From Amoeboradix gromovi X-113 (Eukaryota; Fungi; Sanchytriomycota): 7,750 bases of DNA. The notes beneath the pieces were generated by a model. The model worked only from the letters and a program-made list of their open reading frames with translations. It searched no databases and was not told where the DNA came from. Positions 1 through 7,750 of this stretch are shown in pieces. Numbering within the stretch: position 1 is the stretch's first letter; each line of letters begins with the position of its first letter. The DNA lies in NCBI GenBank assembly GCA_018985225.1, contig JADGIF010000492.1:1-7750 (forward strand), read 5' to 3'. Position numbers and translations under genes: made by a program.

Positions 1-125
1 TACTCCTCGTTAAAAGTCCAGATTTCCGAGAAAATCGAGAATTCTACATAGAAACTAGCAATGTTAGATGCTCCGTTACAGTGCTTGCTCACGCTTTCAC
101 TACCCTGAGGCGGGATTGAATAAGG
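1..125 (-). ncRNA. Putative Fanzor2 omegaRNA scaffold / element right end
   Basis: Lies immediately 3' of RuvC-III, where TnpB/Fanzor omegaRNAs are encoded. Contains the stem GUAGUG...CACUGU enclosing GC-GUGA-GC (GNRA loop; 103-78) and an imperfect hairpin at 21-44. Boundaries are uncertain. Confidence 0.45.
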
Positions 126-472
126 ATGCAGATACTTGTATATGTTCCCTGCTGCCATATGGTCTCTATCTATCTTCAAATGACAATTATCACAAGTGTA
201 GGTTTCTAAATTAGTTTTCTTTAGAGTACCACACCTTGTACATGTCTGAGTAGTAAACGCTTCATTACATTCGATTATCGTCTTTCCTCTTTGTTTACAC
301 TTGAACTTCAAGCGTTCCTTGAATAAACTGTGCAGATATCTTTTTTCTGGCCTCGAAAGACATCTAATTCTTCCATGTTTGGACCAGTTCCTAAGTGTTG
401 ATGAATGTATGCTGTGCCTGCTATTTATTTCTTTAGATTTCACATATTCGGGATTACATCCATTGATCCCAT
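1..472 (-). mobile_element. Internally deleted IS607-like element: TnpA (serine recombinase) N-terminal HTH fused in frame to a Fanzor2/TnpB C-terminus
   Basis: One open minus-strand frame from 449 reads EYVKSKEINSRHSIHSSTLRNWSKHGRIRCLSRPEKRYL (MerR-like HTH typical of IS607 TnpA: TLRxW..GxIxC.R...KR). It continues directly into HSLFKERLKFKCKQRGKTIIECNEAFTTQTCTRCGTLKKTNLETYTCDNCHLKIDRDHMAAGNIY: RuvC-II Glu at 263-261, CxxC at 242-231 and 194-183, RuvC-III Asp at 164-162. ATGs at 472 and 463 are one base out of frame (MDVIP/EYVK). No stop is reached before the window edge. Confidence 0.88.
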
Positions 473-779
473 ATATAATTAATGTAAAGGAAGAATATCG
501 AGTATTTAAGCTATTGGAAAAGTCATGAAATTATATAAAAATGCATACAAATTTGCGATAAATGTTTTATTTTACAAAACAATCGAGCTGTATATGATAC
601 ATCCTCCGTCTTAAAAACCATCATGATGCGATCCTGTCTAGGCTTGGATCAGATCTCGTAACAAGCTACAATAGTTTTATATCTTAGCATCACAGAAGCT
701 CAATTGCAGTACTTAATTTAACCGAAATTGTTTGATTTATTTACGATAATATAAACATTTTAATCTTTATTGCTTTTAG

Positions 780-1893
780 TTAAAACAGCTTCCTCATTTG
801 CTCATAAGTCACATAACTTATAGATGCAGCTGGAGCTACTTTGCATAACGCAGGAAGCAGCCCTTTATAAAACCCTCGTATTCCTTCGTTTCTTCTTGTA
901 TAGTTAATACACTCCCAGACATTTTTGTATTCTACCGGATGCGCTGATGTTTTCATTGCTTGCAGCCTAAATCAGTATTTTGTACCTTGTTCTGATTAAA
1001 TTTAAAGGATAAACAATAGATGCAGATACAGATGCGCTCACCATACCAATTCCCAGAGTACCTGCAACCATTGGAGGCTGCCCAGTAATATTTCGGTATA
1101 AACCTTTTAAAGATTCATAAGTGCCTAGATCAATACCAGCATAGGGGATAATTCCAATCAAGGCTGGACCCGCACCTCTGTAGAAAGTAAAAAATCCGAA
1201 TTTATTGACGCTTTTTGCGACATCGAATATTGACGCTTTTTGCTTAGAATTTTGTTGTAACGCAATCATATATCTAGTTTTCAACGTTTCTAATGGATAA
1301 ATGGCTAACTGACTAATAAAACCAGCTATTGACCCTGCAAGAAATCTACTGGATGGTACATCTGGAAGTATCTCTTTCGAGTACTCAAAGAAGTGAAATT
1401 TTAAGGCAGATTCAGGCATAACCTTCAGACAGTTAAGTAGGTTTCCTCTCCAGAAGGATCGAATGCCATTTTCTTGGTAAATAATTTTTATAATATTTGA
1501 AATGTTGGATTTGCTTGGGTCAGTTTGCAAGTATATTTTAAGCCGATCCAAAGGCGCTGTACAAGTACGACTGACTATTCCGGCTATAGAACCAGATATC
1601 GCAATGGTCCACTGATGCTTCGGCGGCACACTCCCGATTACCCAATAATGAAGTAAATCAGATTCAGTAACAATATTCTGACTACGGAAAAATTTCTTCC
1701 ATTCACCCAGAGTAATTCCTTGATTCTCATGTTGAATTGAACTTATCAATTTCTCTATTTTAGCATCACTCCAAGCAACATGGTTTTCTTTCAAAAACCG
1801 AATAATTTCATCGCGTGTTAGTAAATCATCATTATTAGAATCTATTTTAGAAAATGTTTGGTCAATTACAGACTTTTGATCGTCTGCTGGCAT
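780..1893 (-). CDS. SAL1: Ca2+-binding mitochondrial carrier (ATP-Mg/Pi carrier, SCaMC/SLC25A23-25 family), 364 aa, 2 exons (1893-986, 966-780)
   Basis: N-terminal EF-hand DSNNDDLLTRDE. Three carrier signatures: PLDRLKIYLQ, PLETLKTRYM and PLNLIRTRLQ (the third completed across the intron). Also carries FWRGNLLNCLKVMPESALKF. Spliced exon 2 gives LQAMKTSAHPVEYKNVWECINYTRRNEGIRGFYKGLLPALCKVAPAASISYVTYEQMRKLF*. Confidence 0.93.
967..985 (-). other. 19-nt spliceosomal intron
   Basis: Sequence GTACAAAATACTGATTTAG with GT..AG ends and branch-like ACTGAT. Removing it restores the conserved IRTRLQ carrier motif and the missing sixth helix. Confidence 0.9.
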
Positions 1894-3656: not shown

Positions 3657-6033
3657 TCAACAAAATTTATTCCATTCATTATAAAAGCTATTTGATATGT
3701 AATTGTCCTGTTCTAGCCCAATTGCTGTCAAGTTAACGGTCATATCGTTGAAGTTTTCAAAATAAATTGAGTCAAAATTATCTGAACAAAATGGCCTTAT
3801 TTTAAAATTTTTTTCTTCAAAGTTTTGAATAGGGGAAGAGTTATCAAGTTCGGTTAAGTAGTTTCTAAATGTTATCTACATTAGTTTGAGTTACCAAAAC
3901 ACTATTCTTTAATGGGCCGGACAAACATCGCCAAGCTTCCCTTTTATTCTCAACAAGAACATTTTTAATATCTACGCAAGAGCAATTGTTTTGTAAAATT
4001 ACGCCAAGGTTTTGGCAATAGTTATTTGGAGAACCATAATATAATTGAGCTTCACTAAAGTCGTTTTCATTGTTGAACTGTGAATTACCAGACAATGTGG
4101 CCTCACTGGCGCGATCCCTCGAAGCATAAGAATAGCCATTTACCAAATTATAGGAGTAAACTGGATTTTTAATTGCAATCATTCCTACCACTGCTGAAAA
4201 GGTAGAAGTTAAAACTAGAGCAATAAAGTAATATACTAAAATGTCCTGCAACTTCTTGTCAATCACCATATCCATGTTCTCCAGTTCCGCAGCTTCGATA
4301 TTTAAGTATTCTGCTAATCTGACCTTACCTTTTGTAAAATCTCCTTCGGGTCCCTCTTCGACTTCTGCCTTGCTTTTTTTCTTGTGGTGTACCAAATCCT
4401 TTGACATCTTTTTGGAATACCGCGAATCTAGGTATAAGCCCAGCATAATCGCAAGAAACGGGAGTATTGTTGTAGCAACGATCACTGGCCCAGCAACTTT
4501 GGCACTGACAGGCACCTTGAACGAAAACAGGACCGCAATGAACGCGTTTACAACATTCAGTCCTTGGCAGACAATTGCCACAATATCTTCGATGTTGCTA
4601 ATATACGGTCTCGAGTAGCACGTAATACTAAAAACAAACAAATGTACCCCAGTTAGAGCAACAAATACGACCTGAGTACTTGTACCTCTGTCCGTTTTAT
4701 TTAAGCCAGCTAAAGAAACTATACTAACAACTAAAAGTCGATAAACCAATGATATTAGCTTGTAGTCCTTCCATTTCAGCTGAAACATGGCATATAATGA
4801 TCTACAGCAGTTTTTCGAAGCTGTGACTCTCACAATCCATTGATTCTCAGGGTTTTTTGCTAATACAGGGATTTCCTGTACAAACTTGGAGCACGTTTTA
4901 ATTAACTTATAGTACAAAATCGGCATTCCTATTGTTATCAAAAATATTGATAGAACACACCCCGGGATAAAGTATGGCAATATTTCTGAATAATAAAGTA
5001 TGGTCTTGTCAATCTTCATAAATAGCTCACTTTCTAAGGATTTTTTTAGACCATAATCTGTAAATTGCACCTCCGTATTATTATAACTACTAAAACAGGA
5101 GTTGGATCCTCCTGTATAGGGAGCAAATGGCATCTTCATGTTCCTAACTTCAGTATTTTGGCATTTTTGATATTCAACAAAATTTGAAGAGAAAACAAAT
5201 CTGAATGTCGACAAGGTGATTGGTACATACAGCAAACTCATTACAATTAATATGATCTTTACCACATTCTTTCTAAATCCGTAGTTCATTCTTGTGTTAA
5301 ACATTCTTCCACGTACAGACATGTTGGAAATTACATTATACAGCATGACTATACCTACGAGTCCCAAAATAACGAAGATTGGGTTGCCGTTGTTTCCACT
5401 GTTGCGGTCAATGTTACGGAAGAGAAATGTTCCAATTCCAAAAAAAAAGAAGCCCAAAATTAAATTTCTTGATTGTCTCCAAAAAGACTTTTTGTGAACG
5501 AATTTTAGCCCTTTAAGAAATTTAAACTTTTCTAAATCTATTTCGTCTGCGTCAAGATTTACAGTATCCCCTGTAGCACTTTTTATTTTTTCTTCTATAG
5601 CCTTTTTGTGGCGCCTTTTATAAACAAAGTACTCAATGCCTAGAAGTATTAAAATGACCCCCGTCAAAATCATCAGAACAGTACCACTCGGGTCTTTCTT
5701 GTTAAATACGAATATTATTAATCCTAAGAAAAAACCACCGGTGCAAACTATAATAATCCCGTATCTCAAAATTGTAATCAATGAACGGAAACACAAAATT
5801 ATAATAGCTGATATAGCTATGGGGATCATAGATGTTATGAGCAAATGCTGAGCCCTACTATCAGCGGAATTTAGGCCGAAATAAGGAAAGCTTTCCATAA
5901 AATTGAAGGAAAAAAATTTCAAGATATTTATATAAGGCTTCCATTCGTCCGGCCACTCCATGTCTGCGCTAGCTGTGATGGAAAGAAATTGAGCGTTCAT
6001 CATTAGAATCTCTGCTAAAGAACTGACTCCCAT
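3657..6033 (-). CDS. Multipass membrane protein (~785 aa) with TRP-like/Flc-Pkd2-type transmembrane motifs; 2 exons (6033-3895, 3875-3657)
   Basis: Long ORF with more than 10 hydrophobic segments. Motifs include AQFL...EWP...FFSFNF, YVPIT, LYAMF..KW and RPYISNIED. Splicing 3894-3876 opens 72 further codons (ITFRNYLTELDN...EWNKFC*). The family assignment is tentative. Confidence 0.8.
3876..3894 (-). other. 19-nt spliceosomal intron
   Basis: Sequence GTAACTCAAACTAATGTAG. It has the same length and the same ACTRAT position (nt 10-15) as intron 967-985. Removal extends the frame by 72 codons. Confidence 0.82.
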
Positions 6034-6071: not shown

Positions 6072-6821
6072 TTATTTACTAACAATTAAGTAAAGAAGAT
6101 CTTTATCATCTATCTTATCATGGTTCTCACACACCTTTCCATTCCCGACTAAAATCTGATTCTGAATAGGAATACTCAGAATATTAAAAATAGACTCTTT
6201 CACTTCCAATATTCTCGAAAAGTTGCCAACAGGTAATTGAAATTCCTGATCATGAACCGTTTTAACGCAGATGGTTCTTCCTTCTAAGTCGATTAGGTTT
6301 TTCTCGTCTTTTATATATCTTTGCTTTTTATCAGAGAACTCAGTTGACTTCTTTGCCTGTTTTAAAATAAGCAAAGATTCAATTTTAAACAACGCTGATT
6401 TCATTTCCTCAATTTCAGAGTTTAACTTGCCCATATTTGAGTCATAAATGGATTTCTCAATTGCAAACTTAGCCTGCAGGTCATTAAAACAGTCCTCAAC
6501 AAATGCATTAATCCCGTAGAGCTGCTGCTTTTGATCATTTAACATATTCATAACTTTCTTATTCGCTGCTTTTTGTCTTTCAATTTCGCTCTCTTGCAGT
6601 TGAATTTTTATACTTTGTTTGCTCAACCTTTCCTGAAGTTTAGAGTTAGTGTCATGTAATAAAAGTTCTAACTGTGTTAACTTGATGTTGTCCTGATTCA
6701 CTAGATATGTCTTGTCGCTATTAATAGCATCTTGAAATTTTGGACTACCATGAGTTTTATCAGAGTTTAAAGATGGCTTAAGGGCGTTCTCTTTCTCAAT
6801 AATCTCGTATTCGTCGTTCAT
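6072..6821 (-). CDS. Coiled-coil protein with C-terminal ubiquitin-like domain (no di-Gly), 249 aa
   Basis: Heptad-rich Q/E/K/L central region. The C-terminus ICVKTVHDQEFQLPVGNFSRILEVKESIFNILSIPIQNQILVGNGKVCEN...LYLIV follows the ubiquitin pattern (IFVKT..G....L.V....TI..VK..I....GIP..QQRLIF.GK.LE...LHLV). Confidence 0.85.
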   Translation of the reverse strand: MNDEYEIIEKENALKPSLNSDKTHGSPKFQDAINSDKTYLVNQDNIKLTQLELLLHDTNSKLQERLSKQSIKIQLQESEIERQKAANKKVMNMLNDQKQQLYGINAFVEDCFNDLQAKFAIEKSIYDSNMGKLNSEIEEMKSALFKIESLLILKQAKKSTEFSDKKQRYIKDEKNLIDLEGRTICVKTVHDQEFQLPVGNFSRILEVKESIFNILSIPIQNQILVGNGKVCENHDKIDDKDLLYLIVSK

Positions 6822-6873
6822 CGTTCAACAAGTCCTAAAAGGGGCTCTCTTTTAAATAGTTCATGTATTAATC

Positions 6874-7317: not shown

Positions 7318-7629
7318 TTCTTGGCAGTTTGTTTTAAAAAGTTCGTGTAGTTTTTGGTGATTGTTCCTGAATGAAAAAACAGAAAATTACTTCAACTCAA
7401 AGCAAGGCTAATGGCAAAGTAATTATTGGATTAATTGGATTGAAAAGGGAGATTGAGAATAAGAAATTAGAGAGCCTTTGTCTTGGTGGGAACAAAGCGA
7501 AAACTTCAAGTAATTCAGAGAGGCTAAACATTTTAAAGACTAATCAATTTGATTGTTATGCAGGATACGCACACAGTGTTAGCAAGATTCAATCTCCCAG
7601 GCTACCTAAGAAATAAAGCGTTTAATAAA

Positions 7630-7750
7630 TTGGGACACCAAATATAAAAACTAGACTAACTCGTTTTTAAAGGAGGTGCTCCATACGGAGGAAATCATTA
7701 ATAAAAGATCTTCTTCTATTATACCAATTTTCTTTCATTGATTGTATTCC
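7630..7750 (-). repeat. Second copy (B) of the element 3' end / candidate omegaRNA scaffold; runs off the window
   Basis: Direct repeat of 1929-2053 (about 20 substitutions and 6 gap positions over ~126 columns). Flanks differ beyond the TTGGGACACC boundary. Confidence 0.85.

What the first reader, a model, noticed from the sequence alone, without database searches (positions are those of the whole stretch)
130..472. IS607 TnpA HTH fused in frame to a Fanzor2 RuvC-II/ZnF/RuvC-III half in a eukaryotic nuclear locus
Seen: a stop-free minus-strand frame, absent from the ORF track, joins an IS607-type HTH (IHSSTLRNWSKHGRIRC..R..KRYL) to HSLFKERLKFKC..NEAFTTQTCTRC..CDNC..DRDHMAAGNI, with the junction near 333-345. 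Known: Fanzor2 derives from IS607 TnpB, and IS607-like tnpA+tnpB elements occur in giant viruses and some eukaryotes. Inference: one deletion removed the recombinase catalytic domain and the Fanzor REC/WED/RuvC-I while keeping both element ends, leaving a non-autonomous omegaRNA-bearing element. This implies that a full two-gene IS607/Fanzor2 parent exists or existed in this genome. A translated HTH-ZnF chimera is possible, but the nearest ATGs (472, 463) are off by one base.
Basis: partly seen in the sequence, partly recalled or inferred. Interest (0 to 1): 0.78.

Follow-up and report, generated by a model that had tools for sequence, protein, structure and literature searches.

The report
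High-copy shrunken IS607/Fanzor2 transposon in fungus
The odd fused reading frame is one decayed copy of a 585-base, internally deleted transposon found at 50 or more places in a small fungal genome, which suggests that a bacterial-type IS607 element likely jumped many times inside a eukaryotic nucleus, while the fused protein itself is probably never used.

Summary
The frame is real. Its first half (479-325) matches the N-terminal HTH of IS607 TnpA. Its second half (324-141) matches the Fanzor2 alternative Glu, zinc finger and RuvC-III.

It is not a one-off. 53 predicted proteins on 52 contigs belong to the family, and the 30 looked up are all Amoeboradix gromovi. Eleven share this junction, which lies at about 325, not 333-345. 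No base is missing near 452: the start codon at 479-477 is ATG in most copies and ATT here.

The element runs 587-3 (585 bp, against 1.89-1.95 kb in intact two-gene relatives). Its ends match those relatives (left CAG|CT, right AGGAG), pointing to an AG crossover core instead of the usual GG. An omegaRNA pseudoknot with compensatory pairs is present, but this copy's scaffold folds no better than shuffles.

No intact parent was found among predicted proteins. Half of the copies have lost a zinc or catalytic residue, so the chimera is likely a by-product. The point of interest is likely mass IS607 transposition in a eukaryotic nucleus, which a 2013 survey could not show.

The parts
3..587 (-). 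Non-autonomous IS607/Fanzor2 deletion derivative, 585 bp (one copy of a family with at least 53 others)
   Evidence: Summed contig depth is in the thousands over 1-~590 and 34 beyond; mixed loose ends at place 3; ends match L079-L082
588..590 (-). Left flank CAG: predicted TAM, holding the predicted AG crossover core (boundary inferred to within about 3 nt)
   Evidence: CAGCT stands 111-150 nt before the first ATG in the window and in L079, L080, L081, L082 (5 of 5; 0.10-0.34 expected per 220 nt); L081 and L082 diverge right before it
480..587 (-). Left-end non-coding segment; lacks about 10 nt near 521 relative to other copies
   Evidence: Loose ends behind 521; P0035, P0038, P0039 read through it
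325..479 (-). 5' remnant of IS607 tnpA (MerR-like HTH, about 51 codons); start codon reads ATT here and ATG in most copies
   Evidence: 477 A>C
324..326 (-). In-frame deletion junction 'type A', shared with 11 other predicted proteins on 10 contigs
   Evidence: two diverged unitigs bridge it (records 1 and 2)
141..324 (-). 3' remnant of Fanzor2: alternative Glu (263-261), C4 zinc finger (245-183), RuvC-III RD (167-162); RuvC-I, WED, REC and bridge helix absent
3..120 (-). omegaRNA scaffold remnant: 3-bp stem 114-112/105-103 whose loop (110-106) is predicted to pair with 9-5; ends in AGGAG (7-3); partly decayed in this copy
   Evidence: 31 of 32 cells paired, 3 pairs with two-sided change; z +0.28 here, -1.7 to -4.0 in relatives
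780..1893 (-). Context: host EF-hand mitochondrial carrier gene with an inferred 19-nt GT-AG intron at 985-967; shows a eukaryotic nuclear locus
   Evidence: Pfam Mito_carr and EF-hand; intron position; one unitig spans 550-2024 without differences

Best explanation
This is one copy of a multi-copy, internally deleted IS607/Fanzor2 transposon that keeps both element ends and was likely spread to new sites in the fungal nucleus by the serine transposase TnpA of an intact parent, the fused reading frame being a likely unused by-product. Shown: the homology of both halves, the copy family, shared junctions, unique or mixed flanks, ends like those of intact relatives, and decay of this copy. Inferred steps: (1) a two-gene element like L081 entered the genome, possibly from a giant virus; (2) internal deletions removed the TnpA catalytic domain and most of Fanzor2 but left the end sequences that TnpA binds; (3) TnpA in trans excised these short forms and reinserted them by crossover at an AG dinucleotide behind a CAG target, so copies sharing one junction multiplied; (4) while a full Fanzor2 existed, the right-end omegaRNA could have guided re-cutting of empty donor sites and so helped retention; (5) copies then decayed and exchanged sequence, and the parent was lost or is missing from the predicted proteins.
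For: 40 of 41 candidates in the near-length search are 103-166 aa EukProt proteins. With cluster members there are 53 proteins on 52 contigs, and 30 of 30 looked up are A. gromovi. Of 50 classified, 11 have junction A, 28 carry longer native Fanzor sequence and 11 were unclassified; P0004/P0033 and P0030 show two further junctions. Depth falls to 34 at about 590, and right-end loose ends are mixed (47 contigs, agreement 0.41), so flanks are not shared. Read-through proteins end in different flanks. The family is sister to L081, which carries intact TnpA and Fanzor2 (SH-aLRT 94; clade with L079 and L080 proteins 99; quick tree). The CAGCT left end is in 5 of 5 and the AGGAG right end in 4 of 4 aligned. 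The pseudoknot covaries. Decay: 21 of 42 copies covering all seven sites lost at least one of E, C, C, C, C, R, D; Cys columns are kept 0.77-0.91 against a mean of 0.86.
Against: No whole genome was held, so both flanks were seen for no second copy, and the core and TAM rest on this copy plus three independent relatives. The core is AG, whereas IS607 elements are described as using GG (PMC13565253, PMC10711439 passages). This copy happens to have TA on both sides if the left end is drawn at 590. No parent TnpA or Fanzor2 was found, so the mobilising enzyme is unseen. Differences from the majority are 10 non-synonymous to 6 synonymous, against an expected synonymous share of 0.20 (p 0.076; only sites in the printed tables), and RuvC-III R and D are kept at 0.98: weak hints against pure drift. 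The covariation rests on four sequences, with 8 of 500 shuffles as high. The left junction of most 'B-side' proteins is not visible.
Confidence: 0.75

Rival explanations
1. The short elements were spread by an unrelated cut-and-paste (DDE) transposase that captured the IS607 remnant, as described for 'Fanzor2*' elements with inverted repeats and target-site duplications.
For: With the left end drawn at 590 this copy has TA on both sides and a 4-nt inverted match (CTCG/CGAG) near the ends (sequence). No parent TnpA was found. Such captures are published (PMC10711439 section 24).
Against: The same end motifs occur in L080 and L081, which carry intact IS607 TnpA and show no TA duplication. Proteins reading through the right end imply other first flank bases than TA in several copies. 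No terminal inverted repeat is among the repeats listed.
Confidence: 0.1
2. The HTH-zinc-finger fusion is translated and kept as a small DNA- or omegaRNA-binding regulator, for example a dominant-negative repressor of the parent element.
For: The frame is open over 176 codons here with all seven key residues intact. The junctions visible in proteins are in frame. Similar HTH + Fanzor2 C-terminal fusions occur on other branches (P0044, P0138). There is a slight synonymous excess. A 2013 survey saw purifying selection on lone zinc-ribbon remnants in other eukaryotes (PMC3673617 section 11).
Against: This copy has lost its ATG. Only 2 of 53 family proteins (P0002, P0004) run from the TnpA start through the whole zinc finger, and both have lost key residues. 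Protein sets only show open frames, so in-frame joins are over-counted; one unitig junction has a net change of 71 nt. The AlphaFold model is uninformative (pLDDT 44).
Confidence: 0.06
3. The copies are kept by the host, or by a hidden full-length Fanzor2, as a library of guide RNAs ('ghost' loci) whose guides are the right-hand flanks.
For: The pseudoknot motifs are retained. Ghost loci with working omegaRNAs are published for Fanzor1, and ghost architecture is drawn for Fanzor2 hosts (PMC10432273 passages).
Against: This copy's scaffold folds no better than shuffles (z +0.28 and +0.48), while relatives reach -1.7 to -4.0; one pseudoknot pair is broken; no nuclease partner was found. Expression could not be tested.
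Confidence: 0.06
4. The fusion or the multi-copy signal is an assembly artefact, a co-sequenced virus, or the product of segmental duplication.
For: No listed contig spans this copy's own junction without differences. The nearest intact relatives lie on unclassified metagenome contigs.
Against: A unitig with zero differences joins the left end to the intron-bearing carrier gene at single-copy depth (record 7). Two other unitigs, with 18 and 20 differences, bridge the same junction. The junction recurs on 10 other contigs. Depth drops at the element end rather than running into the flank.
Confidence: 0.03

Closest known systems
IS607-type Fanzor2 elements of eukaryotes and giant viruses ('IS607EU'; ACa-1/-2, ISvMimi, ISvNY2A; PMC3627910, PMC13565253)
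   Same: tnpA-then-Fanzor2 order, MerR-like HTH, alternative Glu before a C4 zinc finger, right-end pseudoknot, no clear TIR or TSD.
   Different: Here both genes are fragments joined by a deletion; copies number at least 54; the ends point to an AG core and CAG target rather than GG and GGG; the host is a sanchytrid fungus that was not found in the searchable supplements of the three 2023 Fanzor surveys.
Fanzor 'ghost' loci (PMC10432273)
   Same: Short non-autonomous loci with element ends and an omegaRNA region but no working nuclease, present in many copies (134 in S. punctatus).
   Different: Those of S. punctatus are Fanzor1 loci with 30-nt inverted repeats, and the paper found no clear transposase link for its Fanzor2 loci. 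These keep a TnpA fragment that names the transposase type. Expression is untested here.
IS607-like fragments in eukaryote genomes (PMC3673617)
   Same: Fragments of orfA and orfB, with the zinc-ribbon part most often intact (43 of 80 sequences).
   Different: That survey put multi-copy fragments down to segmental duplication and found no evidence of transposition. Here flanks are unshared and both ends are kept.
Intact relatives L081/L082, L080 and L079 (metagenome contigs)
   Same: Nearest Fanzor2 branch, same end motifs and pseudoknot, TnpA HTH 44-45% identical.
   Different: 1.81-1.95 kb long with a full Fanzor2; L080 and L081 also have full TnpA, while no TnpA ORF was seen in L079; their scaffolds fold better than shuffles.

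Membership tests
IS607 family (autonomous element) | TnpA with N-terminal MerR-like HTH | tested here: met
   Remnant matches L080 TnpA residues 4-59; L080 and L081 TnpA pass NF033518
IS607 family (autonomous element) | Serine recombinase catalytic domain | tested here: not met
   Deleted in this copy; no family protein with it. Hence filed as a non-autonomous derivative, not as an autonomous IS607
IS607 family (autonomous element) | tnpB/Fanzor2 downstream on the same strand | tested here: met
   3' remnant only
IS607 family (autonomous element) | GG dinucleotide core at both junctions | tested here: not met
   Left flank ends in CAG and right end in AGGAG, here and in relatives with intact TnpA; AG is the shared dinucleotide. 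A GG lies 2 nt inside the right end, but none at the left boundary
IS607 family (autonomous element) | No terminal inverted repeats, no target-site duplication | tested here: inconclusive
   None in L079-L081; a possible TA/TA in this copy; both flanks seen for no other copy
IS607 family (autonomous element) | Short direct-repeat TnpA-binding motifs in the ends | tested here: inconclusive
   No such family inside 3-590 among the 20 of 46 direct-repeat families shown (seed 9); too insensitive for degenerate 8-9-mers
IS607 family (autonomous element) | Movement catalysed by TnpA via a circular intermediate | not testable with these tools
   Inferred from copy number, shared junctions and unshared flanks
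Fanzor2 | RuvC-I DPG motif | tested here: not met
   Deleted here; present in P0043 and P0047. The fragment cannot form the catalytic triad
Fanzor2 | Alternative Glu just before a C4 zinc finger, then RD | tested here: met
   All seven residues present in this copy; feature described in PMC10530073 and PMC13565253 passages
Fanzor2 | Groups with Fanzor2 proteins linked to IS607 TnpA | tested here: met
   Sister to L081 (SH-aLRT 94) in a quick 78-row tree; best PDB match is mimivirus Fanzor2
Fanzor2 | Right-end omegaRNA with pseudoknot | tested here: inconclusive
   Pseudoknot covaries across four elements, but this copy has 4 of 5 pairs and no excess folding; no Rfam match
Fanzor2 | RNA-guided DNA cleavage | not testable with these tools
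   Not expected from the fragment
Fanzor2* in cut-and-paste transposons | TIRs and TSDs, no IS607 TnpA | tested here: not met
   A TnpA remnant is present and ends match TnpA-bearing relatives; TSD not general in read-through proteins
Fanzor ghost locus | omegaRNA expressed from a locus without the nuclease gene | not testable with these tools
   No RNA holder listed

The most novel reading that the evidence does not exclude
A serine-recombinase IS607 element transposed at scale inside a fungal nucleus, using an AG core and CAG target instead of GG, and filled a roughly 10-Mb parasite genome with tens to hundreds of omegaRNA-bearing miniature elements. This would be direct genomic evidence of IS607 transposition in a eukaryote, with enough insertion sites to read off its target rule and the TAM of a new Fanzor2 clade.
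Probability: 0.55. Interest if true: 0.7.

Novelty: new variant of a known kind. Interest (0 to 1): 0.5.

Why it matters
IS607 is the one serine-recombinase transposon type reported in eukaryotes (PMC13565253 passage). The survey that found it there could not conclude that it had ever moved in a eukaryotic genome (PMC3673617 section 11). A dispersed family with shared deletion junctions, both ends and unshared flanks makes that question testable from one genome: the insertion sites give the crossover core, the target bias and the expected Fanzor2 TAM (predicted CAG). The intact sister elements L080 and L081 supply a TnpA and a Fanzor2 to test. There is a practical point too: at least 53 predicted A. 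gromovi proteins are likely transposon debris.

Tried and rejected
Whole-genome search: no genome held.

Full-length parent: 0 of 21 candidates scored at 208-2000 aa (weak evidence by the tool's own note). None of the 40 hits at 64-207 aa is long enough for, or annotated with, a resolvase domain. The best non-family hits among 50% representatives are 55-56% identical or less.

Expression: no RNA holder listed, so nothing follows.

Missing base at about 452: not listed in either laying; rejected.

N-half as Fanzor bridge-helix sequence: rejected, since it aligns with TnpA and not with P0043 upstream of HYSF.

Rfam: no match up to E 1. Plain folding of this copy's right end: not better than shuffles. 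The pseudoknot motif search over 102 of 159 sequences with a located RuvC-III found the paired motif only in the window, L079, L080 and L081 (L082 duplicates L081), so it is clade-specific.

AlphaFold of the fusion: pLDDT 44, pTM 0.28; not searched further. The careful tree did not finish, so the quick tree is cited; it held 8 family proteins, 60 of 85 long hits and selected loci.

Second repeat as Fanzor: no support from PDB, Atlas, Pfam, viral contigs or a Fanzor2 profile. P0067, a frizzled-repeat protein, was a chance hit. Earlier scan findings: none.

Full report
Observation. The minus strand holds a stop-free frame at 3..530 with the motifs quoted. The distal half matches PF07282 at E 1e-18, guided_TnpB models in part and mimivirus Fanzor2 9b0l best among solved structures (E 8e-8). 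The proximal half gives only a sub-threshold MerR hit, so I tested it against real TnpA genes. Among 7,991 ORFs of 158 Fanzor2/TnpB loci the best matches are N-termini of ORFs beside the Fanzor gene, led by L080 (E 2e-11) and L081/L082 (E 1e-8) (same trend in 78 viral loci). Both top ORFs pass the transpos_IS607 cut-off, and L080's matches solved IS607 TnpA catalytic domains. Pairwise, the window matches L080 TnpA residues 4-59 at 46% and L080's Fanzor2 from HYSF onward at 44% over 99 aa. The chimeric make-up is therefore real.

Setting. The neighbour is an EF-hand mitochondrial carrier whose frame is restored by an inferred 19-nt GT-AG intron at 985-967. One unitig of run X1 joins the element's left end to this gene with no differences at depth 34 (record 7). 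No whole genome was held. The organism is inferred from relatives: 30 of 30 family proteins looked up carry EukProt accessions of Amoeboradix gromovi, as does the one paralogue of another window ORF (P0199). A published table gives that species 10.5 Mb, 1,167 contigs and 7,220 proteins (PMC8371127, passages seen; the words transpos, repeat and repetitive do not occur in its main text).

It is a family. The near-length search returned 40 proteins of 41 candidates, all 103-166 aa and 45-88% identical. With cluster members and three further hits there are 53 proteins on 52 contigs. Of 50 classified by pattern, 11 have this copy's junction (type A), 28 carry native Fanzor sequence upstream of it, and 11 could not be placed. 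P0192 and the three added later also read as the longer type. All 11 type-A proteins are A. gromovi, on 10 contigs. P0004/P0033 and P0030 show two further junctions, and a unitig shows another (324 to 368 with 114 letters between). The left junction of most longer-type proteins is not visible, so they may not be one class. 714 contig records lie on 250-700; summed depth is in the thousands to tens of thousands inside the element and 34 outside. The tool warns that this is no copy number, so I take 54 as the floor and 'hundreds' as likely. Two unitigs with 18 and 20 differences bridge the type-A junction. No listed contig spans this copy's own junction without differences.

The junction lies at about 326-324 (loose ends behind 324; the TnpA match includes 341-330). 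No indel is listed near 452. Position 477 reads C in 21 contigs (1,292 of 1,580 depth), giving ATG at 479-477, in register with the L080 TnpA start. This copy also lacks one codon near 138 and about 10 nt near 521.

Ends. Depth falls to single-copy level within 586-601, and 47 contigs leave the window at place 3 with mixed flanks (agreement 0.41). CAGCT stands 111-150 nt before the first ATG in the window (590-586), L079, L080, L081 and L082 (5 of 5, four independent; 0.10-0.34 expected per 220 nt). L081 and L082 are identical for 1,923 nt from that motif but differ before it; they also share the short right flank seen, so one may be an assembly mosaic. AGGAG ends the conserved block in 4 of 4 aligned right ends. 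The element is thus 585 bp, against 1,887 (L081), 1,952 (L080) and 1,813 (L079). IS607 elements recombine at a shared dinucleotide, usually GG (PMC10711439, PMC6188088, PMC13565253; passages). Here the shared dinucleotide is AG, and the three bases before the left end, CAG, would be the TAM. This is inference from few sites.

omegaRNA. A 3-bp stem at 114-103 has a loop complementary to 9-5. Across the window and three relatives 31 of 32 cells pair and three pairs change on both sides; sliding the partners leaves 23-56% paired and no two-sided change; 8 of 500 shuffles score as high, which with four related rows is suggestive only. Such a pseudoknot is needed for an IS607 TnpB and is seen in the mimivirus Fanzor2 structure (PMC10711439 section 26; PMC11832414 passages). 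The relatives' right ends fold better than shuffles (z -3.2, -4.0, -1.7), but this copy's does not (z +0.28), and it holds the one broken pair. The scaffold is a remnant here.

Origin and parent. In a quick tree of 78 rows, 8 family proteins form one clade (99), sister to L081 (94), within a clade (99) holding the L079 and L080 proteins. These relatives are on metagenome contigs whose neighbours gave no diagnostic Pfam family. A giant-virus source is a guess from the known range of such elements (PMC3627910 passages). No full-length TnpA or Fanzor2 of the family was found at 64-2000 aa or among 50% representatives. The parent is lost, or missing from a fragmented and filtered protein set.

Is the chimera used? 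Probably not. It lacks RuvC-I, which is essential in mimivirus Fanzor2 (PMC10530073 passages), and it lacks the recombinase domain. This copy has no ATG. Only P0002 and P0004 of 53 run from the TnpA start through the zinc finger, and both have lost key residues. 21 of 42 copies covering all seven key sites have lost at least one (some through frameshifts), and Cys columns are no better kept than the average. Against this: R and D of RuvC-III are kept at 0.98, and 6 of 16 differences from the majority are synonymous where 0.20 is expected (p 0.076, printed sites only). These could be inherited from working parents. Independent HTH + Fanzor2 C-terminal fusions (P0044, P0138; by alignment only, DNA context not seen) show that the architecture recurs, as expected if only the ends are needed. 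Downstream variants assort across junction types (3:7 against 13:16), which suggests exchange between copies.

Mechanism. Shown: homology, family, shared junctions, unshared flanks, conserved ends, decay. Inferred: entry of an L081-like element; internal deletions; mobilisation in trans by TnpA with crossover at AG; possible retention help from Fanzor2 cutting of empty sites while the parent existed (restorative homing as reviewed in PMC13565253). New sites need a transposase, and the TnpA remnant and end motifs name IS607 TnpA as the most likely one.

Known and new. IS607-type Fanzor2 elements, ghost loci (PMC10432273 passages and Discussion) and eukaryotic IS607 fragments (PMC3673617 passages and section 11) are known. 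The last paper states that it found no evidence of IS607 transposition in eukaryotes. I found no report of this family or of mass IS607 transposition in a nucleus in eight literature searches (listings seen). The words Amoeboradix and Sanchytrium do not occur in the searchable supplements of PMC10432273 (one picture PDF not searched), PMC10530073 or PMC10711439. Repbase, subscription papers and bioRxiv supplements could not be searched, and Repbase may hold comparable families. PMC12247965 (passages) reports giant viruses in zoosporic fungi but does not name sanchytrids.

Verdict. A real, non-autonomous IS607/Fanzor2 deletion derivative, amplified in a fungal genome; the fusion is likely incidental. 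New variant of a known kind; interest 0.5.

Noticed in passing
window 1925-~2400 (minus-strand frame 2392-1862) and 7628-7750: A second high-copy repeat: two copies in the window about 81% alike, depth over 11,000 against 34. By eye the decayed frame upstream recalls a Fanzor1 C-terminus (motifs recalled), but PDB, Pfam, Atlas, viral-contig and Fanzor2-profile searches gave nothing.
   Followed up: partly
P0041, P0058; joint 591 to 1931: In two family proteins the right end runs within about 20 nt into the end of the second repeat, and one contig joins the left end to it. The two families may target each other's ends or share insertion sites.
   Followed up: no
window 1-3; P0008, P0019, P0041, P0191: Several copies seem to have a CAG-like motif 0-1 nt after the right-end AGGAG, and the loose-end consensus at place 3 agrees, while this copy has TA. 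The right end may be a few bases longer in some copies, or the target is biased on both sides.
   Followed up: partly
window 967-985: Inferred 19-nt GT-AG intron in the mitochondrial carrier gene; very short for a fungus (from my own knowledge).
   Followed up: partly
window 3865-6033 (minus): 722-codon ORF with many hydrophobic segments and no Pfam match at E 1.
   Followed up: no
window 6072-6824 (minus): 250-codon coiled-coil-like ORF ending in a weak ubiquitin-like match (E 9e-4, below cut-off).
   Followed up: no
L080 2655-4473; L081 229-1981: In the intact relatives tnpA and Fanzor2 overlap in different frames over several hundred bases; they are ready test candidates for a predicted CAG TAM.
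   Followed up: partly
P0044, P0138/P0187, P0131: Independent short fusions of a TnpA-like HTH (or, in P0131, a GIY-YIG piece) to a Fanzor2 C-terminus in metagenome proteins.
   Followed up: partly
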